Source of the DNA: Gammaproteobacteria bacterium | Lineage (GTDB): Bacteria; Pseudomonadota; Gammaproteobacteria; Eutrophobiales; Eutrophobiaceae | Reading direction: 5' to 3' | Assembly (NCBI GenBank): GCA_963422205.2 | Contig: OY728594.2 | Location: 1-52,210 of the forward strand | Length of the DNA stretch: 52,210 bases | Shown: positions 30,541 through 46,848 of the stretch, piece by piece | How positions within the stretch are numbered: the stretch's first letter is position 1 | How the letters are laid out: each line of letters starts with the position of its first letter | The notes under the pieces: model-generated | Seen by the model: only the letters and a program-made list of their open reading frames with translations | Databases searched by the model: none | What the model was told of the DNA's origin: nothing | Translations under genes and position numbers: made by a program

Positions 30541-31233
30541 TTACGCCGCTTCTAGCAGATTAATGAGTTTTTCGGCCTGCCGCTGCCGGGCAGCAACAGC
30601 GGCATTTACGGCGGCATCTACGGCACAGGCGGCAAAGACGACGGCACGGGCGGCATCGTCTGCGGCATCGTCTGCGGCACAGGCGGTAAGGGCGACGGCA
30701 CGGGCGGCATAGGCGACAAAAGAAGCATCGGCCGCATAGGCGGCGGCATAGGCAGCAGCGGCGGCGACATAGGCTTTTTCCACCACCTCTTTATCCACCT
30801 TTTCGCCTCTTGCCGCTGGCCCTGTGACTTCGCGGCGCACCCGCGCCACAGCTTCTGTTACGTCCGCATCGTCTACCTCCGGCAAATCGCCCAGCAGCCA
30901 GTCGAGGAATTGCCATGTGACCAGGCTTAGATCAGCGCCGGGCTTGATGGCGCCCAGAAACCGCTCCGGCCACGCTTGTGAGTCAGCATCGGGCAGAGAT
31001 TCGAAAATGTCATCCTCCAAGCGCGCCAGTGATTGCGGAATACCAAGCAAATTCTCGTAGGCGCTGTGATCGTTGGGCTGTGCACCCAGATCATGGAGGA
31101 GGCAGCCGACTGCACAGCCCTTGCCATTTTTCCAATATCCGTGATTTTGCACCAGTGTTTCGGCTTTGCGATGGCTGGCCATGATATCCAGCGCTTTGGC
31201 TTTTAAGTCGGGTTGGTTGTGATAAGCAAGCAT
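30541..31233 (-). CDS. MLAYHN-family Ala-repeat protein, paralog A
   Basis: One of six homologous ORFs with a GKGCAVGCLLH head and Ala-rich tail. Confidence 0.8.
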   Translation of the reverse strand: MLAYHNQPDLKAKALDIMASHRKAETLVQNHGYWKNGKGCAVGCLLHDLGAQPNDHSAYENLLGIPQSLARLEDDIFESLPDADSQAWPERFLGAIKPGADLSLVTWQFLDWLLGDLPEVDDADVTEAVARVRREVTGPAARGEKVDKEVVEKAYVAAAAAYAAAYAADASFVAYAARAVALTACAADDAADDAARAVVFAACAVDAAVNAAVAARQRQAEKLINLLEAA

Positions 31234-31250
31234 GATAAATTCTTCTCTCG

Positions 31251-31295
31251 TTTGTTGTATCTGTCAACTTACTTATCTATTCTTTAACTGTCAAC
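31251..31295 (-). promoter_or_regulatory. Repeated sigma70-like promoter (copy 1)
   Basis: Minus strand TTGACA-17-TAAGTT. These 45 bp are identical to 46866-46910. Confidence 0.8.
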
Positions 31296-31310
31296 GGAAA
31301 TTGCCCACAT

Positions 31311-31339
31311 TTGACATCCTCTGTTAAATTTTATTTAAT
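31311..31339 (+). promoter_or_regulatory. Putative promoter for the lysis genes
   Basis: TTGACA-17-TTTAAT, divergent from the paralog A promoter. Confidence 0.55.
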
Positions 31340-31359
31340 AATTGCTAAAGAGGGGAACC

Positions 31360-32064
31360 ATGAAGCGTATAATCATACACTGGACAGGCGGCACGAACAG
31401 CGTTTCCGAACTGGATCGTCAGCACTATCATTTTATCATTGATGGGGACGGCAAAGTTCATGAGGGCAATCTCAAGCCTGAGGCCAATCTTGATTGCACT
31501 GATGGCAACTATGCTGCCCACACACGCCGTTGTAACACAGGTGCAATCGGGGTAGCGCTGGCGGGAATGCATGGCGCAACAGATTTTCCGCTCACAACCG
31601 GCAAATACCCTCTGACATCAAAACAAATTGACGCACTGATCGAATTGTGCGCTGACCTATGCGAAACTTACGGGATCAAAGTTACCCCTAAAACTGTGCT
31701 TACTCATGCCGAAGTTGAGCCTACTCTGGGCATCAAGCAACGCGGCAAATGGGACATCCGCTGGCTGCCTGGGATGACGAGCGTTGGTGGCGCAATTGAG
31801 ATTGGAGACCAGTTGCGCCGTGGCATAAGCAATGCGATGCGGCAAGAGCCAAATGTCAAAATTCGCACAAGCCCAGCACAGTCTAAAGAGGTGCGCGCCT
31901 CAGCAGCGCAAGTTGCGGCAGGCGCGGGCGCGGGTGTATCGGCGGTTGCTGCGCTGGATGGTGCTGCGCAAATCGTCGCGATTGCCTTTGCGGGCGTTGT
32001 CTGTCTGTTGGCTCTCTATCTCATGCGCAAGCGGCTGCAACGGTGGGCACAAGGCGACCGATGA
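31360..32064 (+). CDS. Endolysin, N-acetylmuramoyl-L-alanine amidase (Amidase_2-like) with hydrophobic C-terminus
   Basis: IIIHWT, YHFII..DG, AHT...NTGAIGV and LTHAE motifs. C-terminal TM-like segments. Confidence 0.85.
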   Translation: MKRIIIHWTGGTNSVSELDRQHYHFIIDGDGKVHEGNLKPEANLDCTDGNYAAHTRRCNTGAIGVALAGMHGATDFPLTTGKYPLTSKQIDALIELCADLCETYGIKVTPKTVLTHAEVEPTLGIKQRGKWDIRWLPGMTSVGGAIEIGDQLRRGISNAMRQEPNVKIRTSPAQSKEVRASAAQVAAGAGAGVSAVAALDGAAQIVAIAFAGVVCLLALYLMRKRLQRWAQGDR

Positions 32065-32312
32065 TGTGGCTATCCTTTATAATCAATTCTCGCTTTGGGC
32101 GCGCAGTCGGAATCGCAGTTGGAGCCGTTTTGTTGGTTGTCGGCATTCGACGCTCTGGCTACAACGCTGCCCGGCGGGATCGCGCGGCGGCGGATGTTCA
32201 ATCCTCTCTGGACATCCGTCGTCGCGCGGACGAAGCACTGCGCCGTTCCGAAGGCGATATGCGCCCTGTTGATGATCGGATTGAGGAACACGGGCGGCTT
32301 AGAGATGACTGA
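32061..32312 (+). CDS. Putative inner-membrane spanin
   Basis: N-terminal TM segment plus charged helix, directly after the endolysin. Confidence 0.55.
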   Translation: MMWLSFIINSRFGRAVGIAVGAVLLVVGIRRSGYNAARRDRAAADVQSSLDIRRRADEALRRSEGDMRPVDDRIEEHGRLRDD

Positions 32313-32315
32313 AAC

Positions 32316-32600
32316 GTGTATGATATGACAAATTTGCCCGACTTACCCAAAGACGACGATCCGCACGATCCAATGCTGCCTAACCTGCTTGCCTCGATCC
32401 CAGGCTTGCTTTGGCTTTCGGCGGCAATAGCGGCATTGCTGCTGGCTGGATGCACCTCACTTTCGCCCGCGCCTGCTCAAGCTGTCTGTGACGCACTCAG
32501 GCCCGCCTTGCCGACGTGGAGTGCGCAGGACACTGAGCAAAGCAAGCAGGAGGCGGCGCAGTTTTTAGACGTGTGGGAGGCGGTGTGCAATGGCAATTAA
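32316..32600 (+). CDS. Putative outer-membrane spanin lipoprotein
   Basis: Lipobox LLAGC, Pro-rich, two further Cys. Start codon uncertain. Confidence 0.6.
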   Translation: MYDMTNLPDLPKDDDPHDPMLPNLLASIPGLLWLSAAIAALLLAGCTSLSPAPAQAVCDALRPALPTWSAQDTEQSKQEAAQFLDVWEAVCNGN

Positions 32601-32640
32601 GTGTCATTATCTAGTTTCGCATTGGGAACTACCAGCCTAA

Positions 32641-33621
32641 TTAGCCAAAGCTGATGTATTGCGAAGGTGGATCGTGCGGCCGATAACTGTCTGCGAGTTC
32701 CAACCACCGGCTTAACCTACGCGCCGGCAGGCAGGATTCGCCCCAATATTCAAGGAACAATTCATCGTTCATTTTGCTTGCGGCTTCGGAAATGCGGTGC
32801 GCGTTGTTCTGAATAGAGCGGATCAGGTAATCACCACCGCGTTCTTTTCCCGCTACGCTTCCGGCTGTGAACAGATCGCGGGTTTGTGGCGCAAAAACAC
32901 CGTGTTGCGTGAGCATGTAGAGTGCGGCGTCATCGTATTTTCCGCGTTGTCTTGATCCCTTGAAGATTTGTGGACACATAAGGGCAGCTTCGGCCCGCAT
33001 TTTGTCTTTGGTGCCCTGATCAAGTAAGCGATAAATGCGCACATTTACGGGCAATGTATGCTCACTTTCTTCATCAAACCACCACAACCTTACATCGTCA
33101 CCTATGCGTTCTTTGACGTGATCTTTAACGATAGCCATTTTGGATCGCAGATCAGCTTGTCTAAAATCGTCCATGCTTATGCCGATCTCGCCAAAGAACG
33201 AAGCAACGCCCTCCATATCAATCATGTATCTGGGCGAGTGGGATATTCTAATTCCCTTAATGCAATCGTGATACCAACGCCATCTGACTTCGGGAATGTC
33301 AGCTCTGCAATACACAAGGGCAATATCTCTTGCAGCCTCATCCCTCATTCCTTCAAAGATGCTGTTTCCGGTTCCGTGCCACGTCGATCTGGTCGTGAAT
33401 TTAACCTCGACACCAAACCCGTTGACAACGATATCGGGAAACGCACTGTCATGGAACGAAGGCTTGGCAATTGACGAACCCTCACAGCAAACTCGCAACT
33501 GCGCCAAGACGGTTTTCTCAAACTCCTTGTCATTGGAGTACCCCGGCATTTCCGCCTTGGCTTGCTCGTTCATCAGGACTGTTGCGCGATTCATCAGGTC
33601 GGTGAACGCTTCACGGTTCAT
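32641..33621 (-). CDS. Putative type II restriction endonuclease (PD-(D/E)XK)
   Basis: FPDIVVNGFGVEVK catalytic motif. ATGA-coupled to the C5-MTase. Stop codon lies within the TIR. Confidence 0.75.
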   Translation of the reverse strand: MNREAFTDLMNRATVLMNEQAKAEMPGYSNDKEFEKTVLAQLRVCCEGSSIAKPSFHDSAFPDIVVNGFGVEVKFTTRSTWHGTGNSIFEGMRDEAARDIALVYCRADIPEVRWRWYHDCIKGIRISHSPRYMIDMEGVASFFGEIGISMDDFRQADLRSKMAIVKDHVKERIGDDVRLWWFDEESEHTLPVNVRIYRLLDQGTKDKMRAEAALMCPQIFKGSRQRGKYDDAALYMLTQHGVFAPQTRDLFTAGSVAGKERGGDYLIRSIQNNAHRISEAASKMNDELFLEYWGESCLPARRLSRWLELADSYRPHDPPSQYISFG

Positions 33622-34595
33622 GCAAACACCTGCTCCCAAATTGCTCTGGCAATATGCCACGCCATGACCGGGGGGACCGCGTTGCCGATCTGGCGTTCGG
33701 TTTCACGCATACCACATGGAAAAACGAAATCATCTGGAAAGGACTGAAATCTCGCCTGCTCGCGTAACGAAATACGTCTGGGCAAGCTGTAATGCCACTG
33801 AACATTCCCGTGATGCTCGGCTCGCATGGTTGTTGCTGGAACATCCGCTTTTAATTTCCGTGATCCTTGATCTGGTGAGGCTTTAGCCTTGCTCCATATA
33901 TGCTTGAACTCTGCATCCTCGTTCATGGTCTCAAGATCACAAATCGCATCTGTGGCTGTTGGTGCGCTTGCAAGCGCGCTTGGGAACTCAAACCGCTTGT
34001 CACCGCGAACACCAATAATCAAAAGCCGTTCACGATTTTGAGGCACGCCCCACTGAGACGCGATACAAACTCGCGACGTGACGCAATATTCTGGCAGTGC
34101 AAAATCATCCAAAACCTTTTGCCCAAAATCGCAAGCCAACAATCCTTTGACATTTTCGGCCACGAATACAGCCGGTTTTGTCTTGCGGATCGCTTCAATC
34201 ATGCTCGTGTAAAGGATTGTCCTGCTTCCATCGCCAGCTGATCGCTTACCGTTAACTGATACATCCTGACACGGAAAGCCGCCGATAACGATATCACAGG
34301 ACGCGGGAAGATCGCCAATTAGCGTTTGGATGTCGCCTTGTTGAACGTGATCGCCAATGTTGTCGCGATAGGTCCGACAAGCTGATGCGGATATGTCGTT
34401 TGCAAACTCAATACGGTAGGGCAATCGGTCGTAGGTTTTGCCCATAAACTCAAAACCGCCAAGAAAACCAAGATCCATTCCACCGCAGCCTGAAAACAAG
34501 CTGACAATGGTTTTCTCATCGGGAATTTTGACACCCGCGACACGGGACACAAGTTGTTCAAAATTGGCGGGGATAGATGGAGCGCAATTTGTCAT
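33618..34595 (-). CDS. DNA (cytosine-5) methyltransferase
   Basis: Motifs I (LFSGCGG), IV (GGFPCQ), VI (ENV), VIII (QNRER) and X (IGNAVPP). Confidence 0.97.
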   Translation of the reverse strand: MTNCAPSIPANFEQLVSRVAGVKIPDEKTIVSLFSGCGGMDLGFLGGFEFMGKTYDRLPYRIEFANDISASACRTYRDNIGDHVQQGDIQTLIGDLPASCDIVIGGFPCQDVSVNGKRSAGDGSRTILYTSMIEAIRKTKPAVFVAENVKGLLACDFGQKVLDDFALPEYCVTSRVCIASQWGVPQNRERLLIIGVRGDKRFEFPSALASAPTATDAICDLETMNEDAEFKHIWSKAKASPDQGSRKLKADVPATTMRAEHHGNVQWHYSLPRRISLREQARFQSFPDDFVFPCGMRETERQIGNAVPPVMAWHIARAIWEQVFA

Positions 34596-35509
34596 TCTAC
34601 GCCTCCCACAAGCTGCTTATGCGTCAGCAATCGACCATCAAACTGCCTAGCCGTCTGCGTCATAAAATCTACGGCGTTGCGCGGCAAGTTGTTGCGGGCT
34701 TGAAACTCGTCTACGTAACGCTGTAAGTGCTTCTTGCTCATGTAGTGGAATGTTCCTACGTAACCTCGCTTGAACAAGGCCCAGAACGACTCCATCCCGT
34801 TCGTGCTTACATCATCGCGCACGTATTCCCCGACTGAGTGGTTCACCGCCTCATGCGGCCTGTCGATCCCTTTGTAGGCTTTGGATTCATCGGTGTAGAG
34901 CGTAGCTTCCTTGACGGCGTGATCGTTTACAAAGCCTTGCAACGTCTTGGCGTCTGTATTCTCTACCACTTTGGCTGAAACCTGACCTGTTGCCCGATCC
35001 TTAACACCTGCGATTGGTGTTTTGCCAACCGGACCACGACCCGCCCTGAATTTCTTGTTTGCGTGTTTGTTTTTCTCTTTGCCACCGATATAAGTTTCGT
35101 CGGCCTCAACAGGTCCGGTCATAGCAAAAAGCCCACCCTGATTCCACGCAGCTCGTATCTTGTGTCCAAGACGCCACGCAGCTTCCTGCGCAATACCCAG
35201 CTCACGTGCCAATTGCAAACTGGACACTCCCTTGCGACTTACGCTCATCAGATACATGGCATAAAGCCACTTTTTAACTGGGAGTTTTGCAGATTGCATA
35301 ATTGTCCCGGTTCTGCAGGAAAAGTGCTTGCGGCAATCTTTGCAGCGATAAGGTTGAGGCATTTTTACTGCAACTGTTCGTACTGATCCGCAATGAGGAC
35401 AAAATCGACCATCTTTCCAACGGACGCCTTCAAACCACGCAACTGCGCTTGCCTCATCCGGGAACATCTCATGAAATTGAAATGTGCTGAGTGTGTCCTG
35501 CTTCTTCAT
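34592..35509 (-). CDS. IS1595-family DDE transposase
   Basis: Zn ribbon CPHC..CKDC, ADETYIGG, LYTDE, HSVGEYV, TNGMESFW and KHLQRYVDEF motifs. Confidence 0.95.
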   Translation of the reverse strand: MKKQDTLSTFQFHEMFPDEASAVAWFEGVRWKDGRFCPHCGSVRTVAVKMPQPYRCKDCRKHFSCRTGTIMQSAKLPVKKWLYAMYLMSVSRKGVSSLQLARELGIAQEAAWRLGHKIRAAWNQGGLFAMTGPVEADETYIGGKEKNKHANKKFRAGRGPVGKTPIAGVKDRATGQVSAKVVENTDAKTLQGFVNDHAVKEATLYTDESKAYKGIDRPHEAVNHSVGEYVRDDVSTNGMESFWALFKRGYVGTFHYMSKKHLQRYVDEFQARNNLPRNAVDFMTQTARQFDGRLLTHKQLVGGVE

Positions 35510-35763: not shown

Positions 35764-36591
35764 TTACGCCGCGTCGAGCAGTTTGATCAATTGATTGGCC
35801 TGCCGCTGCCGGGCAGCAGTGGCAGCACGGGCGACATCTTCTGAGGCACAGGCGGCATCTACGGCACAGGCGGCAAAGACGACGGCACGGGCGGCATCGT
35901 CTGCGGCATCGTCTGCGGCACGGGCGACGGCACGGGCGGTAAGGGCGGCGGCACGGGCGGTAAGGGCGGCATCTACGGCACAGGCGGCAAAGACGACGGC
36001 AAGGGCGGCATCGTCTGCGGCATCGTCTGCGGCACGGGCGACGGCACGGGCGGTAAGGGCGGCGGCACGGGCGGCACGGGCGGCACCGGCGGTAAGGGCC
36101 GCATCACGGGCATCACTGGCAGCATCAGCGGCTTTTTCCACCACCTCTTTATCCACCTTTTCGCCTCTTGCCGCTGGCCCTGTGACTTCGCGGCGCACAC
36201 GCGCCACAGCTTCTGTTACGTCCGCATCGTCTACCTCCGGCAAATCGCCCAGCAGCCAGTCGAGGAATTGCCATGTGACCAAGCTTAGATCAGCGCCGGG
36301 ACGAATAGCGCCAAGAAACGTCTCGGGCCACGCCTGCGAATCAGCGACCGGCAGGGCTTCGAAAATGTTGTCTTCCAGGCGCGCCAGAGGTTCGGGAATA
36401 CCAAGCAAATCCTCGTAGGCGCTGTGATTGTTGGGCTGTACACCCAGATCATGCAGCAGGCAGCCGACAGCGCAGCCCTTGCCATTTATCCAGTATCCGC
36501 GATTCTGCACCAGCGTCTCCGCTGCGCGGTGACGGCCCATGATCGCCAGCGCTTTTGTCTTAAGGTCAGGATTGTTGTGATAAGCTAACAT
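35764..36591 (-). CDS. MLAYHN-family paralog B
   Basis: ATG at 36591 after GAGAGG RBS. Contains an internal 114-bp tandem duplication. Confidence 0.8.
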   Translation of the reverse strand: MLAYHNNPDLKTKALAIMGRHRAAETLVQNRGYWINGKGCAVGCLLHDLGVQPNNHSAYEDLLGIPEPLARLEDNIFEALPVADSQAWPETFLGAIRPGADLSLVTWQFLDWLLGDLPEVDDADVTEAVARVRREVTGPAARGEKVDKEVVEKAADAASDARDAALTAGAARAARAAALTARAVARAADDAADDAALAVVFAACAVDAALTARAAALTARAVARAADDAADDAARAVVFAACAVDAACASEDVARAATAARQRQANQLIKLLDAA

Positions 36592-36625: not shown

Positions 36626-36646
36626 GAGAGCGCCAATGGCGCTCTC
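36626..36646. repeat. Repeated intergenic hairpin GAGAGCGCC-N3-GGCGCTCTC (copy 1)
   Basis: Same 9-bp stem and flanks occur at 37426 and 46205. Confidence 0.85.
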
Positions 36647-36665: not shown

Positions 36666-37391
36666 TTACGCCGCTTCTAGCAGATTAATGAGTTTTTCGG
36701 CCTGCCGCTTGCGGGCCTTGGCGGCGGCATCTGCGGTGGCATCTACAGCACGGGCGGCATCTACAGCACGGGCGGCATAGGCGGCACGGGCGGCATCTAC
36801 AGCACGGGCGGCATAGGCGGTATCGGCGACGGCACGGGCGGCATCGTCCGCGGCACAGGCGGCAAAGGCGGCATCTGCGGCACGGGCAGCAAAAGCGACG
36901 GCATAGGCGGCATCACTGGCAGCATCAGCGGCTTTTTCCACCACCTCTTTATCCACCTTTTCGCCTCTTGCCGCTGGCCCTGTGACTTCGCGGCGCACCC
37001 GCGCGATCGTCTCAGTCACGTCCGGATTGTCCACCTCGGGGAGGTCCTCAAGCAACCGGTCCAGAAACTGCCATATGACCAGAGTCAAATCAGCGCCGGG
37101 CTTGATGGCGCCCAGAAACCGCTCCGGCCACGCTTGTGAGTCAGCATCGGGCAGAGATTCGAAAATGTCATCCTCCAACCGCGCCAGTGGTTCGGGAATA
37201 CCAAGCAAATCCTCGTAGGCGCTGTGATCGTTGGGCTGTGCACCCAGATCATGCAGCAGGCAGCCGACAGCGCAGCCCTTGCCATTTATCCAGTATCCGC
37301 GATTCTGCACCAGCGTCTCCGCTGCGCGGTGACGGCCCATGATCGCCAGCGCTTTTGTCTTAAGGTCAGGATTGTTGTGATAAGCTAACAT
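36666..37391 (-). CDS. MLAYHN-family paralog C
   Basis: 5' part is near-identical to B. The 3' two-thirds are near-identical to D. Confidence 0.8.
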   Translation of the reverse strand: MLAYHNNPDLKTKALAIMGRHRAAETLVQNRGYWINGKGCAVGCLLHDLGAQPNDHSAYEDLLGIPEPLARLEDDIFESLPDADSQAWPERFLGAIKPGADLTLVIWQFLDRLLEDLPEVDNPDVTETIARVRREVTGPAARGEKVDKEVVEKAADAASDAAYAVAFAARAADAAFAACAADDAARAVADTAYAARAVDAARAAYAARAVDAARAVDATADAAAKARKRQAEKLINLLEAA

Positions 37392-37425: not shown

Positions 37426-37446
37426 GAGAGCGCCCTTGGCGCTCTC
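37426..37446. repeat. Repeated intergenic hairpin (copy 2)
   Basis: GAGAGCGCC-CTT-GGCGCTCTC. Confidence 0.85.
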
Positions 37447-37460
37447 GTTGCTTGTCAGAC

Positions 37461-37928
37461 CTATTTTTTCCATGGCGCTGTTTCAGTATCCGAAGCCTGA
37501 TCAGATTGCGTTGGGTTTGCAGGCGCAGAGTTGTAGGGCTTGTAAGACACGACGCGGTTTTGCGGACCGTAATTCGGATCGTCTTTGACCCGGAGTTTTA
37601 CGCGCATGGGTATCCCATGCAGTTCCTCGGTGTCCTGAATGCGCAGTTTCCCGCAAGCGTGAATGATTGAGTTCAGTTCACGCTGGGCAATTTCAATAGT
37701 GGTTGTATTGTTGTTCCACAAATTTAAAATAGTCCAGAAACGCCGACCTTGTGCATCACCCTCCTGCACTTCAAACTCGCAGTTTACAAACGCATTTCCG
37801 TTGCCAGACTTGGCAAACTGCTTTTCGCTTTTGACGAGTGTAGCCACGTATTCCCCAGCAGGCAACGCAGTCACCTCATTCATGGTTTTGCCGCCAGTAG
37901 CGTCGTATTCACCTCCAAGATCAGCCAT
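37461..37928 (-). CDS. Single-stranded DNA-binding protein (DUF669-like)
   Basis: LPAGEY, GRRFW..LNL, DTEELHG.P motifs and C-terminal APWKK. Confidence 0.8.
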   Translation of the reverse strand: MADLGGEYDATGGKTMNEVTALPAGEYVATLVKSEKQFAKSGNGNAFVNCEFEVQEGDAQGRRFWTILNLWNNNTTTIEIAQRELNSIIHACGKLRIQDTEELHGIPMRVKLRVKDDPNYGPQNRVVSYKPYNSAPANPTQSDQASDTETAPWKK

Positions 37929-38748
37929 TTTCAGTCTCCTCTGCTTGATTGGATATTTTAGAATGCCCCGGCATATAGGGGGCCAGTGCGGTATAACCGT
38001 CAGTCTCGTTAATCAGGATTTTGTCCGGCATACGGTAGCGATTGCCTGCCTCGAAAGTTGGACGAGGGGCAAGATTAAGCGCCCGCTGGCCTGATCCCTT
38101 GGCTTTCGTAATTTTCTTGGTATTTTTGCCAAATCCCGTTTTTTCTTGATCCAACGTGATAACTGCATTCAAAAAACCAACGATATCCGCCCTTTCGCGG
38201 ATCATCGCATCGGCCCTTTTATGCAGACGCATTTTGTAACGATCGTAGTCGTCGCGTTCGGGATCGGAAAACCTCTCGACCATCTCATGCGCAATCAAAA
38301 TGATTGTCATGCGCTTGTGATCACGCAGCCACGCGCAGGCAGATAGAAAATCGCGCCAGACCTCATCAGCTGCTACATACCCTTTGCCGTAGCCAGGGTC
38401 TTCAATTGACGACCATCGCCCATTAGGATCATCTGAACTGCGCTTGCACGTCTCTTTCCAAACCAACGGTTCCATTTGCGTCAGACTATCGATAACCAGA
38501 GTCTGGAAATCATGCTCTTCGGTTGCTAATTCAATCAGCGCCTGATTGACATCGGCAAAGCTGGTCAGCGGTTCCTCGCTAAAACTGGTGAGTTCCAACG
38601 ACCCCGCGCCATCTTCAGTTTGTATAAAGATCGGCTTGGGAAATCCGGCGGCAAGCGTTGTCTTGCCCATTTTTCCGCGCCCATAGATCACTATCATCGG
38701 CGGTTTATCTGGCTTTTTCTGAACCAGATTATTAAGTGATATAGTCAT
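37921..38748 (-). CDS. Sak4-like AAA_24 ATPase (ssDNA annealing/recombination)
   Basis: YGRGKMGKTT Walker A, TLVIDSL Walker B, GYGKGY and ILIAH motifs. Adjacent to the SSB gene. Confidence 0.85.
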   Translation of the reverse strand: MTISLNNLVQKKPDKPPMIVIYGRGKMGKTTLAAGFPKPIFIQTEDGAGSLELTSFSEEPLTSFADVNQALIELATEEHDFQTLVIDSLTQMEPLVWKETCKRSSDDPNGRWSSIEDPGYGKGYVAADEVWRDFLSACAWLRDHKRMTIILIAHEMVERFSDPERDDYDRYKMRLHKRADAMIRERADIVGFLNAVITLDQEKTGFGKNTKKITKAKGSGQRALNLAPRPTFEAGNRYRMPDKILINETDGYTALAPYMPGHSKISNQAEETENG

Positions 38749-38768: not shown

Positions 38769-39494
38769 TTACGCCGCTTCTAGAAGTTTGATCAATTGAT
38801 TGGCCTGCCGCTTGCGGGCCTTGGCGGCGGCATCTGCGGTGGCATCTACAGCACGGGCGGCATCTACAGCACGGGCGGCATAGGCGGCACGGGCGGCATC
38901 TACAGCACGGGCGGCATAGGCGGTATCGGCGACGGCACGGGCGGCATCGTCCGCGGCACAGGCGGCAAAGGCGGCATCTGCGGCACGGGCAGCAAAAGCG
39001 ACGACATAGGCGGCATCACTGGCAGCATCAGCGGCTTTTTCCACCACCTGTTTATCCACCTTTTCGCCTCTTGCCGCTGGCCCTGTGACTTCGCGGCGCA
39101 CCCGCGCGATCGTCTCAGTCACGTCCGGATTGTCCACCTCGGGGAGGTCCTCAAGCAACCGGTCCAGAAACTGCCATATGACCAGAGTCAAATCAGCGCC
39201 GGGCTTGATGGCGCCAAGAAACCGCTCCGGCCACGCTTGTGAGTCAGCATCGGGCAGAGATTCGAAAATGTCATCCTCCAACCGCGCCAGTGGTTCGGGA
39301 ATACCAAGCAAGCGTTCGTAGTCAGCGTATCTGTCCGGCGTTCCGCCGAGGTCGTGCAGCAAACAGCCGACAGCGCAGCCCTTGCCATTTTCCCAGTATC
39401 CGTGATTTTGCGCCAGTGTTTCGGCTTTGCGATGGCTGGCCATGATATCCAGCGCTTTTGTCTTAAGGTCAGGATTGTTGTGATACGCTAACAT
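38769..39494 (-). CDS. MLAYHN-family paralog D
   Basis: About 510 bp (38802-39311) are near-identical to 36699-37208. Confidence 0.8.
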   Translation of the reverse strand: MLAYHNNPDLKTKALDIMASHRKAETLAQNHGYWENGKGCAVGCLLHDLGGTPDRYADYERLLGIPEPLARLEDDIFESLPDADSQAWPERFLGAIKPGADLTLVIWQFLDRLLEDLPEVDNPDVTETIARVRREVTGPAARGEKVDKQVVEKAADAASDAAYVVAFAARAADAAFAACAADDAARAVADTAYAARAVDAARAAYAARAVDAARAVDATADAAAKARKRQANQLIKLLEAA

Positions 39495-39515: not shown

Positions 39516-39866
39516 TCATTCAGTTGTTGCAAATTCTGCAACAACTGAACCGCCCTTGAATACTTCACCAATCTCGCGAATGACGTTGTTAAACGTAAAA
39601 TCGTCTACACCCATGGCCTCTGCCAGCCCATCCTGCCCCGATTTGAACCGCGCAATGAGATTGTCAAGATCATAAAGACGCTTGCTGGGCAGTCGGAATG
39701 TGATGCTGCGCAAGATCAAATGAAGCTGCGGTCTAACGCCTGCATCCCACGCCGCTTCAAAACAAGCTTTGCGATATTCCTTGCGTCGCGCCGCAATCAG
39801 CCAGAGCGACCGTGTGCGAAAATTTGGACTAAGCTCTTTGTACATCCAAGGTAAAAGTACTTTCAT
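39516..39866 (-). CDS. rusA: RusA-like Holliday junction resolvase
   Basis: LSPN start and DLDNLIARFKSGQDGL....GVDD motif. Confidence 0.75.
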   Translation of the reverse strand: MKVLLPWMYKELSPNFRTRSLWLIAARRKEYRKACFEAAWDAGVRPQLHLILRSITFRLPSKRLYDLDNLIARFKSGQDGLAEAMGVDDFTFNNVIREIGEVFKGGSVVAEFATTE

Positions 39867-41178: not shown

Positions 41179-42773
41179 AACTGCGTGATTATCAATTAGC
41201 CGCCGTCGATGCGACGTATCAATTCATGGCGCAAGGGCGCGGCAACCCTCTTGTTGTCGCGCCAACAGGATCTGGAAAAAGCCTGATCCTGTCCGAGTTC
41301 ATCCGCAGTGCACTCACAGACTATCCCGACACTCGCATTATATGTGCCACGCATGTCAAAGAGTTGATCCAGCAAAATTACCACGCGCTCATGCGCCTCT
41401 GGCCTGATGCGCCAGCAGGAATTTATTCCGCTGGGCTGAACAAGCGGCAGGTAAACAGACCTATCACATTTGCAGGCATTCAGTCGGTCGCCAAACGGGC
41501 TGATGAATATGGCGATATCGATTTAATGATTGTTGATGAAGCGCATCTTATACCGCGCAAGTCTGCGACGATGTATCAGCGGTTTATTGAAGGCCTCAAG
41601 AATACCAACCCGCAACTCAAAATTATTGGCTTGACCGCCACGCCGTTTCGTGTCGACAGCGGGCGGCTGGATCAAGGCCAAGGCGCGATGTTTGACGGCA
41701 TATCTTACGACATTCCGATCACATATCTGGTCGAGCAGGGCTATCTGGCCCCGCTTGTCAGCAAGTCACCATCGATTGTCTTCGATACCAGCGGCCTGCG
41801 CACGCGCGCAGGTGAATGGGTTGAGAGCGAGATGGTGCAGCGGTTTGGCACGGATAAAATCACCCAGGCCGCCGTTCAGGAAATTATTCAACTGGGGCAG
41901 GATCGAAAATCCTGGCTGATTTTTTGCATCAACGTGGATCACGCGACTGCGGTCAGGGATGTACTTATTGAGCACGGTATTCCCACCGCCGTGGTAACTG
42001 GTGCCACGGCAGCAATAGACCGGCAGCGGATATTGGCAGATTACAAAGCAGGAAGATTGCGGGCTATAACGAATGTCAATGTGCTTTCGACGGGCTTCGA
42101 CGCGCCTCAAACAGATCTTCTGGCTTTTCTTCGTCCAACGCAAAGTTTGGGCCTGTATCTCCAGATGGCAGGCAGAGCCATGCGCACTGCGCCGGGTAAA
42201 GAAAACGGCCTTGTGCTGGACTACGCGGGCAATGTGCTGCGACACGGGCCGGTGGATGCAGTGCAGGTCCTGGAAACACCGCATCAAACAAAAGGCACAG
42301 GCGAGGCGCCGTCGAAAGTTTGTCCTAATTGCAAGTCAATTCTTCACGCGGCAGTTCGCGAGTGTCAGGATTGCGGCTTTGAGTTTCCACCGCCCGTACC
42401 AAAAATTGAAAAGCGCGCCAGCACAGCGGCAATCATGAACATGACTGCTGATGAGAATTGGCAGGCTGTCCAGGACTTCATTGTCTGCAAACACGATCCA
42501 CGCGACGGGAGGCCTGTGTCTTTGCGGGCTGAATATCTGGTCAGCAATTGCTGCGTTAAAGAATGGGTGTGCCTGGAGCATTCCGGTTTTCCGCGCCAGA
42601 AGGCTGTCCAATGGTGGCAAGCCTATGCAGGCACGACACCGCCAGCAACTGTTGCAGAGGCCTTGGATCGGCAGAATGAAATTAGACCGCCTGCGGAGGT
42701 CGTCGTGCGCCGCGAAGGCAAATATGATCGGATTTACCGGGCGCGGGGGCACAAGAAAAGGAATGCAGCGTGA
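41175..42773 (+). CDS. SF2 DEAH helicase with C-terminal Zn finger (RadD/YejH-like)
   Basis: LRDYQ, APTGSGKS, DEAH, TAT, QMAGRAMR and CPNC..CQDC motifs. Confidence 0.92.
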   Translation: MKLRDYQLAAVDATYQFMAQGRGNPLVVAPTGSGKSLILSEFIRSALTDYPDTRIICATHVKELIQQNYHALMRLWPDAPAGIYSAGLNKRQVNRPITFAGIQSVAKRADEYGDIDLMIVDEAHLIPRKSATMYQRFIEGLKNTNPQLKIIGLTATPFRVDSGRLDQGQGAMFDGISYDIPITYLVEQGYLAPLVSKSPSIVFDTSGLRTRAGEWVESEMVQRFGTDKITQAAVQEIIQLGQDRKSWLIFCINVDHATAVRDVLIEHGIPTAVVTGATAAIDRQRILADYKAGRLRAITNVNVLSTGFDAPQTDLLAFLRPTQSLGLYLQMAGRAMRTAPGKENGLVLDYAGNVLRHGPVDAVQVLETPHQTKGTGEAPSKVCPNCKSILHAAVRECQDCGFEFPPPVPKIEKRASTAAIMNMTADENWQAVQDFIVCKHDPRDGRPVSLRAEYLVSNCCVKEWVCLEHSGFPRQKAVQWWQAYAGTTPPATVAEALDRQNEIRPPAEVVVRREGKYDRIYRARGHKKRNAA

Positions 42774-43051
42774 CGCATAAATTTCATATCACTGATCACG
42801 CGGCGCTGCGCTATCTGGAGCGGGGTTGGGGGGTGGATGTGGCCGCCCTGAAGCGGCGGGTTGCCGCGCAGGTGCCCTGTGCGGAAATTTCGGTTGAGGC
42901 GTTCGGGGACTGTGCCGTGATCCGCGACGGGCTGCGGTTTCATCTGCGGCGCGCAGAGGATGGCACGGTCACGATTGTCACGATCACCAGCGCCCAGGAG
43001 GGCCATATCTCGAACCGCGCTAAAAGACTTAAACAAAGAGGAAAGAAATGA
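42770..43051 (+). CDS. Hypothetical protein
   Basis: ITDHAALRYLER motif, coupled to its neighbours. Confidence 0.6.
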   Translation: MTHKFHITDHAALRYLERGWGVDVAALKRRVAAQVPCAEISVEAFGDCAVIRDGLRFHLRRAEDGTVTIVTITSAQEGHISNRAKRLKQRGKK

Positions 43052-43368
43052 GACGTGTAATCATCGAAAGCCCGTATGCGGGAGATGTTGCGGAAAATAT
43101 CAAATATGCAAGGCAAGCAATACGCGATAGCCTGAATCGTTGTGAGTCACCTTTCGCTTTGCACCTGCTTTATACTTATCTAGATGTCCTAGACTATAAT
43201 GTTCAGATTGATCGCTACAAAGGCATCGCAGCCGGTCTCGCATGGCACGAGGTGGCGGACGCGGTGATTGTTTATCAAGATTTAGGAATTTCAAAAGGAA
43301 TGAAGCAATCGATTGAGGCAGCAAAATTGAACAAAGTTCCGGTCGAATACAGATCAATTTTGTCATGA
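43048..43368 (+). CDS. Nucleoside deoxyribosyltransferase-like small protein
   Basis: VIIESPYAGD...PFA.HLLY and GISKGM motifs. Confidence 0.6.
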   Translation: MRRVIIESPYAGDVAENIKYARQAIRDSLNRCESPFALHLLYTYLDVLDYNVQIDRYKGIAAGLAWHEVADAVIVYQDLGISKGMKQSIEAAKLNKVPVEYRSILS

Positions 43369-43685
43369 CGGGGATGCCGGGATATCCTTGTCCTGTCTGC
43401 AAGCGCGCCGGGGGCGCAATTACAATCAGCTTGGAAAACCATCAACTGCAACATCTGTGCAGTCGAAAATGTGCGAGGCTTTACATGTCCGACACGCCTT
43501 TGAAAACAAATGAACAAGCGGCCCTTGTCATAGGCGGGCAGGCGGCTGGTGCATATCTTGAGCAGATAAGTCAGTTTGATTTGCGGAAACTGACCTCTGA
43601 GCAATGGGCTGTGTTCTGCGCAACGTTGTTTCAGGCGACGTGTTCAGACTTGGAAAAACAGGCAGATGATAAAATACCATTTTAG
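43365..43685 (+). CDS. DUF6511-like Zn-binding hypothetical protein
   Basis: CPVC and CSRKC motifs, GAYLEQI...DL..LT.EQW, ends IPF. Confidence 0.55.
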   Translation: MTGMPGYPCPVCKRAGGAITISLENHQLQHLCSRKCARLYMSDTPLKTNEQAALVIGGQAAGAYLEQISQFDLRKLTSEQWAVFCATLFQATCSDLEKQADDKIPF

Positions 43686-43795
43686 GTGGAAGCTATGATC
43701 CGCCCTCGCACCACATCGACTTTGGCTAACGCACTTATAAGTTATGGGCTTGACACTTGCAACTCTTCAAGGTATCAATAGGGAATTATATACTA

Positions 43796-44026
43796 GGGCT
43801 GGAAAGCTTTTGGGCACCGATGAAGCGCGGTTACCATGGCATCTATCACAAGATGTCGCCCAAGCACCTGCAACGCTATGTGAATGAGTTCTCGGGCCGT
43901 CACAACAACAGACCGAAAAATACCATCGAGCAAATGAAAAGGCTTGTATCCAGCGTGGAAGGCAAACGGCTGCGCTACGTGGACCTGATTGCTCCGAACG
44001 GTTTACCAAGTGGGGCGCGGTCATGA
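43796..44026 (+). pseudogene. IS1595 transposase C-terminal fragment
   Basis: [32 protein letters not shown], homologous to the end of 34592..35509. N-terminal three quarters are missing. Confidence 0.85.
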
Positions 44027-44658
44027 GTGGGGTGGAAGCCGCAACCGACCTTTCCAATTTTCTCGGGTCACATAAATTCTCAACCGTGATGGCCGATCCG
44101 CCTTGGCGTTTTACCAACAGAACCGGGAAGATGGCACCGGAACACAAGCGGCTTGCAAGGTACCCGACAATGACGTTGCAAAACATTTGCGCCTTACCGG
44201 TTGCTGATTTTATGGAAGACAGATCGCATTGTTACCTTTGGGTTCCGAATGCCCTTCTTCCCGAGGGTCTACTCGTCATGTCTCAATGGGGTTTCACCTA
44301 CAAATCAAATATCATCTGGCACAAGATACGCAAAGACGGCGGGTCTGATGGGCGCGGCGTCGGTTTCTATTTTCGCAACGTGACGGAAGTTCTGTTGTTC
44401 GGAATACGTGGTAAGAACGCCAGAACATTGCAGCCAGGGCGGCGTCAGGTAAACCTGTTCGGGACGCGTAAGCGCGAACATTCCCGCAAGCCGGACGAGC
44501 AATACGACATCATCGAAAGTTGCAGCTGGGGGCCTTACCTCGAATTGTTTGGGCGTGGCAAACGAGAGAACTGGACTGTTTGGGGCAATCAGGCAACCGA
44601 CGATTACAAGCCTACGTGGGACACGTACAAACATAATTCTGCGGTCGCTGCGGAATGA
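44023..44658 (+). CDS. MT-A70 family N6-adenine methyltransferase
   Basis: ADPPW, YLWV, WGFTY, EHSRKP and LELFGR motifs. Confidence 0.92.
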
Positions 44659-44874
44659 GCGTTCCAGCAACGCCTGAGCAACTGGCGCAAGCCGTCACTA
44701 AAGGTGGAGCGGATCGCAAAGAGCCGGAACAAGAATCTTAATGAAAAAACTTGATTTTCGAAGTCGATTTTATCTTGTATGCCTGTGGCCCGCCCATGCC
44801 TGGTGCTGGTTTGTATCCTGCCTTTTTGGAATTGGATGGAGCGGGCCTTGGGATGATTTCGCCGATAACGACAA

Positions 44875-45060
44875 TCAGGAATAGCCGTTCAGGCGTTCCT
44901 AAGCTCTGGCTTTTGATTCCGTCATTGGACCACCTGCAATTTGAAGAAATCCGCTTGGCCATTTCTGACGATGTTCGGCCTCCCTACGCTTGGGATCTGT
45001 TGTGATGCCACCGTGAAGGATGCGTCCGTCGGAAATGAAGTGATATGTGTACCAGTTCAT
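44875..45060 (-). pseudogene. Small GIY-YIG-like protein interrupted by TAG
   Basis: YTYHF...HGGITTDPKRREAEH. In-frame TAG at 44899-44901, then ERLNGYS-stop, consistent with a TGG to TAG change. Confidence 0.45.
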
Positions 45061-45255
45061 GGTCAACTCCCGTTTTTGACGAGACGTTGACCTTTTGCGC
45101 AAACGTTTGCTACAAAGAACGCAGCCAAGGTTCGGCCAGCCAACGGCTCGTGGTTTAAAGGCGGCGTGAGGTGCTACAACACCTTGCGCCGTTTGCGTTA
45201 TACAAAATCTATATGTAGGAGTCCAAACTATTGGGCACTATCGTATATAATTCCC

Positions 45256-45375
45256 ATTTTTTACTCGCGAATGCAAATGCTTACCGTGAGCGAGATACTT
45301 GAAGGCAAGCGGTTTGAAATGCCGTCGATTGCCCGAGCGCGGGGAGAAAGAGAGCCGCAATTGCCGCTGGGATAA
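45256..45375 (+). pseudogene. C-terminal remnant, probably of an MTase/Mrr-type R-M fusion gene
   Basis: YSRMQMLTVSEILEGKRFEMP. Begins right at the inner TIR and stops at the outer IR. Family assignment is from recall only. Confidence 0.45.
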
Positions 45376-45468
45376 AGCCCATAACTTATAAGTGCCTAAG
45401 TGCGAAGCCTTTTCTTCAATTCTGCTGGCGTTAAACGTTCGATTTTCATGATAGTTCCTTTTCACTTT

Positions 45469-46173
45469 TCACGCGGCCTTGAGCAATTCGATGAGTTTGT
45501 CGGCTTGCTGCTTACGGGCGGCATCTGCGGCACGGGCGGCACGGGCCGCATAGGCGGCGGCATAGGCGGCGGCATCTACGGCATAGGCAGCATCGATAGC
45601 GGCATAGGCAGCATCGATAGCGGCATGGGCAGCATCGATAGCGGCATAGGCAGCATCGATAGCGGCATGGGCAGCATCGATAGCGGCACGGGCGGCATCG
45701 GCGGCGGCATAGGCGGCATGGGCAACCTCTTTCGTGACCGTCTCCCCCCGCGCAAGCGGCTTAGTTACTTCCGTTCGCACCCGCGCGACTACCGCCGTCA
45801 CATCGGCGTACTTGACTTCCGGCAGATCGCTCAGCAGCCAGTCGAGAAATTGCCAGATTACGCGGCTTAGATCAGCGCCGGGCTGGATCGCGCCAAGAAA
45901 CCGCTCGGGCCACGCCTGCGAATCAGCGGCTGGCAGAAATTCGAAAATGTCATCCTCCAGGCGCGCTAGCGGTTCGGGAATGCCCAGCAAGCGTTCGTAG
46001 TCAGCGTGTCTGTCCGGCGTTCCGCCGAGGTCGTGCAGCAGGCAGCCGACCGCGCAACCCTTGCCATTTATCCAGTATCCGCGATTTTGTTCCAGCGTTT
46101 CGGCTTTGCGATGGCTGGCCATGATATCCAGCGCTTTGGCTTTTAAGTCGGGTTGGTTGTGATAAGCAAGCAT
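45469..46173 (-). CDS. MLAYHN-family paralog E
   Basis: Contains five 21-nt tandem units (45580-45684) encoding AIDAA(H/Y)A heptads. Confidence 0.8.
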   Translation of the reverse strand: MLAYHNQPDLKAKALDIMASHRKAETLEQNRGYWINGKGCAVGCLLHDLGGTPDRHADYERLLGIPEPLARLEDDIFEFLPAADSQAWPERFLGAIQPGADLSRVIWQFLDWLLSDLPEVKYADVTAVVARVRTEVTKPLARGETVTKEVAHAAYAAADAARAAIDAAHAAIDAAYAAIDAAHAAIDAAYAAIDAAYAVDAAAYAAAYAARAARAADAARKQQADKLIELLKAA

Positions 46174-46204
46174 GATAAGTTCTCTCTCGTTTGTTGTTGA
46201 TGTT

Positions 46205-46225
46205 GAGAGCGCCCTTGGCGCTCTC
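46205..46225. repeat. Repeated intergenic hairpin (copy 3)
   Basis: GAGAGCGCC-CTT-GGCGCTCTC. Confidence 0.85.
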
Positions 46226-46236
46226 GTTGCTTGATG

Positions 46237-46848
46237 TTACGCCGCTTCTAGCAGCTTGATCAATTGATTGGCCTGCCGCTGCCGGGCAGCAGTGGCAGCA
46301 CGGGCGGCATCTGCGGCACGGACGGCACGGGCCGCATAGGCGGCGGCATAGGCGGCGGCATCTACGGCATAGGCAGCACGGGCGGTATCTTCTGAGGCAC
46401 AGGCGGCATGGGCGGCACGGGCCGCATAGGCGGCGGCATCTACAACACGGGCGGCATCTACGGCATCTGCGGCACGGGGGGTATCTTCTGAGGCACAGGC
46501 GGCGACATAGGCGACATAGGCGGCACAAACAACATTAGCGGCTTTTCTTGCCACCTCTTTATCTACCTTTTCGCCTCTTGCCGCTGGCCCTGTGACTTCG
46601 CGGCGCACACGCGCCACAGCTTCTGTTACGTTCGCATCGTCCACCTTGGGGAGGTCCTCAAGCAGCCAGTCGAGAAATTGCCAGATTACGCGGCTTAGAT
46701 CAGCGCCGGGCTGGATCGCGCCAAGAAACCGCTCGGGCCACGCCTGCGCATCAGCGAACGGCAGGGCTTCGAAAATGCTGTCTTCCAGGCGCGCCATGAT
46801 CGCCAGCGCTTTTGTCTTGAGGTCAGGATTGTTGTGGTAAGCTAACAT
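46237..46848 (-). CDS. MLAYHN-family paralog F with in-frame deletion of the Cys/His segment
   Basis: Reads ...ALAIM/ARLED..., lacking about 51 aa that include GCAVGC. Confidence 0.75.
   Translation of the reverse strand: MLAYHNNPDLKTKALAIMARLEDSIFEALPFADAQAWPERFLGAIQPGADLSRVIWQFLDWLLEDLPKVDDANVTEAVARVRREVTGPAARGEKVDKEVARKAANVVCAAYVAYVAACASEDTPRAADAVDAARVVDAAAYAARAAHAACASEDTARAAYAVDAAAYAAAYAARAVRAADAARAATAARQRQANQLIKLLEAA

What the first reader, a model, noticed from the sequence alone, without database searches (positions are those of the whole stretch)
30541..46848. Six-member phage gene family with combinatorially shuffled segments: candidate recombination-driven diversification system
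Seen: six same-strand paralogs (A 30541, B 35764, C 36666, D 38769, E 45469, F 46237) total about 4.3 kb of a 52-kb genome. Their alleles assort as a patchwork rather than a tree. NQPDLKAK (A,E) vs NNPDLKTK (B,C,D,F). DIMASHRKA (A,D,E) vs AIMGRHRAA (B,C). NHGYW (A,D) vs NRGYW (B,C,E). QPN.HSAYE (A,B,C) vs GTPDR.ADYER (D,E). SLVTW (A,B) vs TLVIW (C,D) vs SRVIW (E,F). QAEKLINL (A,C) vs QANQLIKL (B,D,F). All frames are intact. Inference: ongoing gene conversion or recombination, plausibly by the Sak4-like ATPase and SSB that sit between C and D, generates a repertoire of variants of an early protein. An anti-defence or host-takeover role is a guess. No RT is present, so this is not a DGR.
Basis: partly seen in the sequence, partly recalled or inferred. 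Interest (0 to 1): 0.9.

Follow-up and report, generated by a model that had tools for sequence, protein, structure and literature searches.

The report
Six mosaic copies of unknown phage gene
A 52-kb phage contig carries six intact, same-strand copies of a very common but uncharacterised phage gene that have repeatedly swapped segments with one another, which looks like ordinary recombination between repeats in an unusually expanded family, with no sign of a dedicated diversity-generating machine.

Summary

The mosaic is statistically strong:
- PHI was 0.243 against 0.467±0.010 in permutations, with 0 of 5000 permutations as low.
- There were at least 5-6 recombination events in 457 nt.
- 8 of 10 pairs have longer matching runs than any of 2000 permutations.
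- Segment trees reject one another.

All copies are under purifying selection (dN/dS 0.12-0.36). F has an in-frame 51-residue deletion of the conserved core.

The family is huge and unnamed: 4054 clusters at 50% identity, no Pfam, PHROG or NCBIfam hit, and no PDB fold match. It is normally single-copy: 121 of 125 related loci and 10 of 10 whole viral records.

No reverse transcriptase, invertase or integrase lies on the contig, and there are no silent cassettes.

Best reading: a lineage-specific expansion homogenised and shuffled by general homologous recombination (gene conversion). A Sak4/SSB role and an anti-defence role remain inferences. Reads could not be examined because the tool was unreachable.

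The parts
30541..31233 (-). Paralog A (230 aa), lone copy between the lysis genes and an HTH gene
   Evidence: ORF; alignments; N-domain HMM E 3e-71
35764..36591 (-). Paralog B (275 aa), in tandem downstream of C. It carries a 114-nt x 2.1 duplication (97% matches) in the Ala-rich part at 35851-36085.
36666..37391 (-). Paralog C (241 aa). It has 0 private variants among 156 variable N-domain sites and is identical to B at the 5' end (194 nt), to A in the middle (90 nt) and to D in the 3' part (165 + 202 nt).
38769..39494 (-). Paralog D (241 aa), between the RusA-like and Sak4-like genes; 92% aa identity to C
45469..46173 (-). Paralog E (234 aa), the most divergent copy (45 private sites). Its Ala-rich part is a 21-nt x 6.7 tandem array at 45579-45719.
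46237..46848 (-). Paralog F (203 aa), directly downstream of the primase gene. It has an in-frame deletion of 51 residues covering the conserved core.
31261..31294 (-). 34-nt motif with two TTGACAG words, upstream of A; identical copy upstream of F
   Evidence: 2 exact matches, 0 expected by chance. Promoter-like TTGACA-17-AAGAAT.
46876..46909 (-). Second copy of the 34-nt motif, upstream of F
36626..36646 (.). 9-bp GC-rich hairpin (GAGAGCGCC-nnn-GGCGCTCTC) just upstream of B
   Evidence: 3 matches in the window, 0.05 expected
37426..37446 (.). Same hairpin just upstream of C
46205..46225 (.). Same hairpin just upstream of E
37921..38748 (-). Sak4-like ssDNA-annealing ATPase; candidate agent of the exchanges (inference only)
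   Evidence: phrog_124, E 2.9e-45
37461..37928 (-). Phage SSB-like protein, overlapping the Sak4-like gene's end
   Evidence: phrog_2300 1.4e-35 and phrog_6015 1.2e-26
39516..39866 (-). RusA-like Holliday junction resolvase, directly upstream of D
   Evidence: phrog_34, E 1.1e-10

Best explanation
The contig is a phage whose structural module resembles podoviruses of the BPP-1 type. One widespread, uncharacterised accessory gene, normally present once per phage, has expanded here to six co-oriented copies. They sit at junctions between gene modules (after the primase, around the Sak4/SSB/RusA block, and beside the lysis/RM island).

Each protein has three parts: a conserved all-alpha N-terminal domain of about 150 residues, a fast-changing Ala-rich helical hairpin, and a conserved C-terminal end (ADKLIELLxAA).

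The patchwork of alleles comes from repeated non-reciprocal homologous recombination (interlocus gene conversion) between the copies. This is carried out by general recombination functions (the phage's own Sak4-like annealing protein, SSB and RusA, and/or the host's), not by a dedicated diversifier.

Crossovers between these direct repeats would delete essential genes. So only conversion products survive, and selection keeps all copies coding.

Shown: the copies, the mosaic, purifying selection, the rarity of multi-copy states, and the absence of RT or site-specific recombinase genes.

Inferred: which enzymes do the exchange, and what the proteins do. My committed guess is a host-directed accessory function such as counter-defence or host takeover. 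On this guess the conserved His/Cys/Asp/Glu-rich N domain is a metal-binding or catalytic core, and several diverged variants widen the range of targets. I give that functional guess about 0.3 on its own.
For: Copies and mosaic:
- PHI: 0 of 5000 permutations as low as observed; Rm at least 5-6.
- 8 of 10 pairs exceed all 2000 permutations in run length.
- Identical tracts sit inside otherwise 60-80% identical pairs: B-C 194 nt, C-D 202 and 165 nt, A-C 90 nt, E-F 88 nt, A-B 82+69 nt, A-E 82 nt.
- C has 0 private variants among 156 variable sites, against A 7, B 12, D 6 and E 45.
- Segment trees are mutually rejected.
- Upstream cassettes assort independently of the 5' coding alleles: the 34-nt motif precedes A and F, the hairpin precedes B, C and E.

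Functional genes: dN/dS is 0.12-0.36 in all 15 pairs.

General recombination genes are present: Sak4-like, SSB and RusA-like. Published abstracts state that Sak4 anneals ssDNA with its cognate SSB and that such proteins recombine diverged DNA (PMC5928155, PMC5499656; start of abstracts).

No dedicated machinery on C1: 0 of 3 RVT_1 matches, 0 of 5 Phage_integrase matches and no Resolvase match lie on it. Mismatches are not A-biased.

Expansion is exceptional:
- 121 of 125 related loci hold one copy, 4 hold two, and the window holds six.
- 10 of 10 whole viral records hold one copy, 6 of them estimated 100% complete.
- 0 of 125 other genomes of the host's family hold the gene.

Accessory nature: the best neighbour cluster occurs in only 7 of 124 loci. 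The family comprises 4054 clusters at 50% identity.

Repeat hypervariability: loci with 95.7% identical N-domain DNA have entirely different Ala-rich parts.
Against: - No reads were examined, so the assembly of six similar copies is unverified. Copy C, which has no private variant, is also what a chimeric consensus would look like.
- Deep synonymous divergence between alleles (dS up to 1.4), plus alleles shared with outside homologs P0004/P0005, mean that part of the patchwork could have been imported from other phages and not generated in this genome.
- Copy number elsewhere is underestimated. Only up to 10 kb on each side was held for the 125 loci, and 37 of 125 contigs end inside the gene's Ala-rich repeat.
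- Nothing shows expression or timing.
- The anti-defence guess has no direct support: no PADLOC, Pfam, PHROG or NCBIfam hit and no fold relative.
- Deep conservation of many polar residues in the N domain fits an enzyme better than a fast-evolving inhibitor.
Confidence: 0.68

Rival explanations
1. Programmed repertoire shuffling: the six copies form a standing library that the phage's Sak4/SSB/RusA module recombines at high frequency each infection cycle. This would yield new chimeras of a counter-defence protein, a form of variation by gene conversion like antigenic variation but without a reverse transcriptase.
For: - The mosaic is dense, with at least 5-6 events in 457 nt.
- Recombination genes sit in the middle of the family.
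- 8% of a compact genome is spent on the family.
- All copies are co-oriented and kept open.
- The Ala-rich part is hypervariable across the family.
Against: - There is no expression-site/silent-cassette layout: every copy has a start codon and leader.
- Purifying selection acts on all copies.
- Alleles are old (dS 0.2-1.4), and exact tracts are few and short, at most 202 nt.
- No specific recombinase or RT was found.
- Breakpoints fall in conserved stretches, as expected for plain homologous recombination.
- Rate was not measured because no reads were available.
Confidence: 0.08
2. Imported mosaic: the copies were acquired or rebuilt mainly by recombination with other phages carrying the same family, so the patchwork reflects exchange between phages and not conversion within this genome.
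For: - Outside homologs P0004/P0005 share the A/D/E-type alleles (DIMAxHRKAETLAQNHGYW, YERLLGIP, ADKLIELLKAA).
- dS between alleles reaches 1.4.
- The family is extremely common in phages.
- Gene GC is 0.59-0.63, against 0.517 for the contig.
Against: - Exact tracts of 82-202 nt are shared between copies of this one genome, with three different partners in the case of C.
- No close relative was found in JGI metagenomes with protein C (0 confirmed of 447 pattern matches), or by megablast in the phage collection.
Confidence: 0.15
3. Assembly or polishing artefact: reads from strain variants or from other copies were merged, creating false chimeras or false extra copies.
For: - The contig belongs to a 14-contig assembly and shares no DNA with the other 13 contigs.
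- C has no private variant.
- The family's repeats break assemblies elsewhere: 37 of 125 contigs end inside the gene.
Against: - Each copy lies between different unique genes.
- A, B, D and E carry private variants.
- Blocks are clean, and all frames stay open with low dN/dS.
- Long internal repeats are resolved, for example the 114-nt x 2.1 array in B.
Confidence: 0.05
4. Homology linkers: the copies persist because, as direct repeats flanking gene modules (lysis/RM island, Sak4-SSB block, replication block), they promote excision, duplication or exchange of whole modules. The protein function would be secondary.
For: - All copies are direct repeats placed at module junctions.
- In Xanthomonas virus phiXaf18 the single homolog also follows the primase gene.
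Against: - Strong purifying selection acts on the protein sequence.
- The family has no conserved neighbour across 124 loci.
- No variant arrangement has been observed.
Confidence: 0.04

Closest known systems
Interlocus (ectopic) gene conversion in multigene families, i.e. concerted evolution of paralogs
   Same: - Paralogs lie in one genome.
- Tracts of identity are embedded in diverged sequence.
- Segment trees conflict.
- Exchange is non-reciprocal and leaves the loci in place.
   Different: It occurs here in a 52-kb phage, where direct repeats of about 700 bp flank essential genes. The family is otherwise single-copy.
Phage 'genomic accordion': segmental amplification of counter-defence genes (T4 tifA against toxIN, PMC9391042; SegB-driven amplification in T6, PMC13096335; both seen as search listing with the start of the abstract)
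   Same: The copy number of an accessory gene has increased in a phage genome. Two of the pairs here are tandem (C-B, F-E).
   Different: - The copies here are diverged (dS 0.2-1.4), mostly dispersed and individually maintained. They are not a recent near-identical tandem array.
- No counter-defence activity is known for this family.
Cassette-based antigenic variation by gene conversion (pilE/pilS, vlsE, VSG; recalled, not from a call)
   Same: Segmental, mosaic exchange occurs among family members.
   Different: There is no single expression locus and no silent truncated donors. All six copies have start codons and leaders, and five are full length.
Diversity-generating retroelements (for example Bordetella phage BPP-1, whose terminase is 39% identical to this phage's)
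   Same: A phage gene family shows localised variability. The structural module is distantly related to BPP-1-like phages.
   Different: There is no reverse transcriptase on the contig, no adenine-specific mismatch pattern and no template/variable repeat pair.
Imm5 / Imm5_like (PF14423, PF21805) alpha-helical repeat proteins
   Same: The language-model search placed Imm5_like clusters nearest among named clusters (score 0.80), probably because of the Ala-rich helical repeats.
   Different: - No Pfam hit came from any of the six copies at E up to 1.
- Imm5 and Imm5_like were not among the 4 families matched by any of the 66 family members at E up to 0.01.
- The N domain alone gave no named-cluster hit.

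Membership tests
Multigene family with interlocus gene conversion | Two or more paralogs in the same genome | tested here: met
   Six copies lie on contig C1 and none elsewhere in the 14-contig genome.
Multigene family with interlocus gene conversion | Phylogenetic incongruence along the gene, beyond what homoplasy gives | tested here: met
   PHI 0 of 5000 permutations; Rm at least 5-6; AU tests reject the other segments' trees.
Multigene family with interlocus gene conversion | Unusually long identical tracts between otherwise diverged copies | tested here: met
   8 of 10 pairs had 0 of 2000 permutations reaching the observed run; tracts of 82-202 nt.
Diversity-generating retroelement | Reverse transcriptase gene next to the variable gene | tested here: not met
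   PF00078 gave 3 matches in the genome, all on contig C7 and none on C1.
Diversity-generating retroelement | Differences confined to adenines of a template repeat | tested here: not met
   Of 2082 pooled mismatches, 46% involve A, against 59% C, 47% G and 48% T; 55% are transitions.
Site-specific inversion or shufflon systems (Gin/Cin, Rci) | Serine or tyrosine recombinase gene at the locus | tested here: not met
   PF00239 has no match in the genome. PF00589 has 5 matches, on C3 and C7 only.
Site-specific inversion or shufflon systems (Gin/Cin, Rci) | Segments in inverted orientation bounded by short inverted sites | tested here: not met
   All six copies are on the minus strand as direct repeats.
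Cassette antigenic variation (expression site plus silent donors) | Silent, promoterless or truncated donor copies and one expressed copy | tested here: not met
   All six have an ATG and a purine-rich leader. Two have a promoter-like motif and three a hairpin cassette. Expression itself was not tested.
Genomic accordion (recent tandem amplification) | Tandem, near-identical copies | tested here: not met
   Only C-B and F-E are tandem. Pairwise dS is 0.2-1.4.
Imm5_like (PF21805) / Imm5 (PF14423) | Match to the Pfam model | tested here: not met
   0 of 6 copies match at E up to 1. Among the 66 family members scanned at E up to 0.01, neither model was among the 4 families matched.
The unnamed phage family itself (N domain + Ala-rich hairpin + ADKLIELL end) | Conserved N-domain residues (K11, H21, W34, G39-C40-A41, C44, P66, E73-D74, F77-E78, P89, G99) | tested here: met
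   These residues are invariant in 52 sequences. They are present in A-E but largely deleted in F.

The most novel reading that the evidence does not exclude
The six copies are a working repertoire. The phage's own annealing/resolution module (Sak4-like, SSB, RusA-like), embedded among the copies, keeps reshuffling their segments and Ala-rich repeats. A phage population would then carry many chimeric variants of one host-directed protein. This would be a variation strategy in a virus of bacteria that resembles antigenic variation and needs no reverse transcriptase.
Probability: 0.1. Interest if true: 0.85.

Novelty: new variant of a known kind. Interest (0 to 1): 0.5.

Why it matters
Phage genomes rarely tolerate long direct repeats, because recombination between them deletes what lies between. 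Six maintained, diverged, segment-swapping copies, 8% of the genome, point to strong selection on this protein.

The family is one of the large unnamed phage families: 4054 clusters at 50% identity, no Pfam model and no solved fold relative. This phage therefore offers natural variants for working out what the family does.

If the exchange proves frequent, it would be an example of repertoire diversification in phages that needs no retroelement. If it does not, it remains a clean case of concerted evolution in a virus.

The finding also has a practical side. The gene's Ala-rich repeat ends 37 of 125 contigs, so the family is systematically truncated and under-counted in short-read viromes.

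Tried and rejected
Function by homology:
- Pfam, PHROGs, NCBIfam and PADLOC gave nothing meaningful for the copies. The weak PHROG hits (E 0.02-0.06) fall in the Ala-rich part and were discarded.
- A profile search of PDB sequences gave only a weak ZorA hit (E 0.011) and low-complexity hits, which I judged spurious.
- Foldseek of the full model and of the N domain against PDB gave no match at E up to 0.001 (best E 2.7 and 5.7).
- BFVD gave one uncharacterised phage protein.
- The Atlas lead to Imm5_like (0.80) was not borne out.
- A search for fused forms found one 448-aa protein with PF10094, which was uninformative.
- Neighbourhood analysis found no conserved partner.

Homodimer prediction (complex prediction): no verdict (score 0.01). 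It is not used as evidence either way.

Close relatives:
- Megablast of 17 kb against the phage collection found no match.
- A metagenome scan with protein C confirmed none.
- The host's family had 0 of 125 genomes with the gene.

Contig ends: no terminal repeat was found, and the two end ORFs do not join in frame.

Literature: a search for phage paralog gene conversion returned no phage case among the 15 of 91 papers listed. This is not a claim that none is in print. Papers cited were seen only as search listings with the start of the abstract, except PMC3482391, where 12 passages were read and added nothing. Supplements were not consulted.

Not available:
- Reads were never examined, and read laying was not called.

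Full report
WHAT IS THERE.

The window is the whole of contig C1 (52,210 bp) of a 2.99-Mb, 14-contig assembly. It shares no DNA with the other 13 contigs and has a lower GC (0.517 against 0.54-0.56 for most of them).

It is a phage. PHROG and Pfam matches identify the following:
- a large virion protein (1575-4127);
- terminase large subunit (8367-9968);
- portal/adaptor (10182-11828);
- capsid protein (13289-14116);
- tail tubular proteins (15024-18134 and 18122-20452);
- an internal virion protein with a transglycosylase part (21325-24657);
- an amidase endolysin (31342-32064);
- a replication/recombination block: HTH, Sak4-like, SSB, RusA-like, exonuclease, helicase and primase.

The terminase is only 40% identical to that of Acidovorax phage AP1 and 39% to BPP-1-like phages. 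Megablast of 17 kb against the phage collection found nothing. The contig has no terminal repeat, and both ends lie inside ORFs that do not join in frame, so it may be slightly incomplete.

THE OBSERVATION.

Six minus-strand ORFs at the stated coordinates are paralogs. C is 92% identical in protein to D, 83% to A, 86% to B (over residues 1-189), 73% to E and 69% to F.

Two additions are needed:
- F has an in-frame deletion of 51 residues that removes most of the family's invariant residues.
- B has a 114-nt duplication (2.1 copies, 97% matches) in its Ala-rich part.

The copies also carry shared upstream cassettes:
- An exact 34-nt motif with two TTGACAG words precedes A and F (2 matches, 0 expected).
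- A 9-bp GC hairpin precedes B, C and E (3 matches, 0.05 expected).
- D follows the RusA-like gene directly.

IS THE PATCHWORK REAL?

On the DNA alignment, pairwise identity in 60-nt windows swings between about 57% and 100% along the gene, and the nearest partner keeps changing.

Pairwise homoplasy index:
- On the unambiguously aligned 457 nt (five full-length copies, 80 informative sites) it is 0.243, against 0.467 ± 0.010 in permutations. None of 5000 permutations was as low.
- With all six copies the result is again 0 of 5000.
- The four-gamete minimum is 5 and 6 events.

A run-length test found 8 of 10 pairs with longer agreeing runs than any of 2000 permutations. The two exceptions were B-E (312 of 2000) and C-E (436 of 2000).

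Exact tracts include B-C 194 nt (reaching 43 nt upstream of the start), C-D 202 and 165 nt, A-C 90 nt, E-F 88 nt, A-B 82 and 69 nt, and A-E 82 nt.

ML trees of four segments differ, and AU tests reject the other segments' trees (p from 0.02 down to below 1e-30 for most). Segment 3 is the exception: it rejects trees 1 and 2 but not tree 4 or the whole-region tree at 0.05. The whole-region tree is rejected by segment 1 (0.006) and segment 2 (1.3e-4). The segments were chosen after seeing the data, so these p-values are generous. The PHI result does not share that weakness.

Copy C has no private variant among 156 variable sites (A 7, B 12, D 6, E 45). It is made of stretches identical to B, then A, then D. 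This means at least three recent exchanges involving C.

ARE THE GENES FUNCTIONAL?

dN/dS is 0.12-0.36 in all 15 pairs. The highest pooled ratio (0.54) falls in residues 49-64, a predicted loop.

Synonymous divergence between alleles is large (dS 0.2-1.4). The shuffled alleles are therefore old, and only some exchanges are recent.

Outside homologs P0004 and P0005, which both come from one 10,221-bp contig, share the A/D/E-type states at several segments. Some dimorphisms therefore predate this genome.

WHAT IS THE PROTEIN?

None of the six copies hits Pfam, NCBIfam or PADLOC. The PHROG hits are weak and fall in the Ala-rich part.

A profile of the N domain finds 4054 clusters at 50% identity (2949 at E ≤ 1e-10). 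Nearly all are proteins of 200-270 residues with the domain at the N terminus.

Relatives are in at least 464 viral contigs and in prophage-like regions of MAGs from many phyla.

The architecture is constant:
- an N domain with invariant K11, H21, W34, G39-C40-A41, C44, P66, E73-D74, F77-E78, P89 and G99;
- an Ala-rich repeat of variable length (46-55% Ala here);
- a conserved end, ADKLIELLxAA.

AlphaFold models are confident (pLDDT 84.6 for the full protein, 88.6 for the N domain). They show an all-alpha domain followed by a long helical hairpin. Foldseek finds no PDB relative (best E 2.7 and 5.7) and only one uncharacterised viral model.

The cluster of conserved His, Cys, Asp and Glu suggests a metal site or catalytic centre. 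That is inference.

The Ala-rich part evolves much faster than the N domain. Loci whose N-domain DNA is 95.7% identical have entirely different repeats, while those 99.5-100% identical differ by at most a residue or a short indel.

In 37 of 125 related contigs (24 of 80 viral, 13 of 45 genomic) the contig ends inside this repeat. Only 1 of 125 has its 5' end there.

HOW UNUSUAL IS SIX?

- Among the 125 related loci (up to 10 kb held each side), 121 hold one copy and 4 hold two.
- All 10 whole viral records searched hold one copy, 6 of them estimated 100% complete.
- None of 125 other genomes of the host's family has the gene.
- The duplicated cases elsewhere are tandem pairs at 59-92% identity. 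One second copy has an internal deletion like F, and another is truncated.

The counts are lower bounds, because assemblies break in the gene.

The family has no conserved neighbour (best cluster in 7 of 124 loci). However, in Xanthomonas virus phiXaf18 the single homolog follows the primase gene, as F does here.

MECHANISM.

Nothing dedicated to diversification is on the contig. There is no RVT_1, no tyrosine recombinase and no serine recombinase. There is no adenine-biased mismatch spectrum, no inverted segments and no silent cassettes. Breakpoint intervals fall across conserved stretches, as plain homologous recombination predicts.

The phage does encode a Sak4-like annealing protein, an SSB and a RusA-like resolvase. 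Published abstracts state that Sak4 anneals ssDNA with its cognate SSB and that such proteins recombine diverged DNA and generate phage mosaicism (PMC5928155, PMC5499656; start of abstracts). Whether these enzymes or the host's do the work here is not shown.

All copies are direct repeats around essential genes, so reciprocal crossovers would delete those genes. Only conversion products should persist. That step is inference.

VERDICT.

The closest known kind is interlocus gene conversion in a multigene family. The phage 'accordion' of counter-defence genes is a looser parallel (PMC9391042, PMC13096335; start of abstracts).

I rate it a new variant of a known kind, with interest 0.5. The expansion and the size of the unnamed family make it a good experimental lead. 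The main open risks are the unverified assembly and the unknown function.

Noticed in passing
window 32641-35509: The phage carries a complete type II restriction-modification pair: REase 32641-33660 (PADLOC REase_II, 1.9e-67) and C5 cytosine methyltransferase 33618-34595. Directly beside it is a full IS1595-family transposase (34592-35509; DDE_Tnp_IS1595 2.6e-38). The whole island lies between paralogs A and B.
   Followed up: partly
window 43757-44658: An 89-aa ORF that reads like the C-terminal end of an IS1595-type transposase (judged by eye, not searched) abuts an MT-A70 methyltransferase gene (44023-44658; PF05063 2.3e-27).
   Followed up: no
L010-L134 (related loci): In 37 of 125 related contigs the assembly ends inside this gene's Ala-rich repeat, against 1 of 125 at its 5' end. 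The family is therefore systematically truncated and under-counted in short-read assemblies.
   Followed up: yes
window 35795-36418, 38796-39242, 45400-45870 (+ strand): Long ORFs run antisense to the Ala-rich repeats and encode Gly/Ala/Arg-rich strings. They are a by-product of GCN repeats and probably not genes.
   Followed up: no
window 1-1575 and 51229-52209: Both contig ends lie inside ORFs that do not join in frame, and there is no terminal repeat. The phage genome may lack a short stretch.
   Followed up: partly
L135 (Xanthomonas virus phiXaf18, record 25196-26050): The single homolog (gp37, annotated as a hypothetical protein) lies directly downstream of the DNA primase gene, the same position as copy F. 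This may be the ancestral site of the family gene.
   Followed up: partly
L056 12980-13519: In another phage, a second copy of the family gene has an internal deletion and no Ala-rich repeat. It resembles the deletion derivative F.
   Followed up: no
G000 contig C7 824763-827751: Two reverse-transcriptase matches lie close together on a host contig, one with an in-frame TGA. They are unrelated to the phage contig.
   Followed up: no
window 97-1575, 6513-8354, 25569-26765, 51229-52209: Large ORFs in the structural half have no PHROG hit, or no Pfam hit apart from a weak DUF4394 match in 6513-8354.
   Followed up: no
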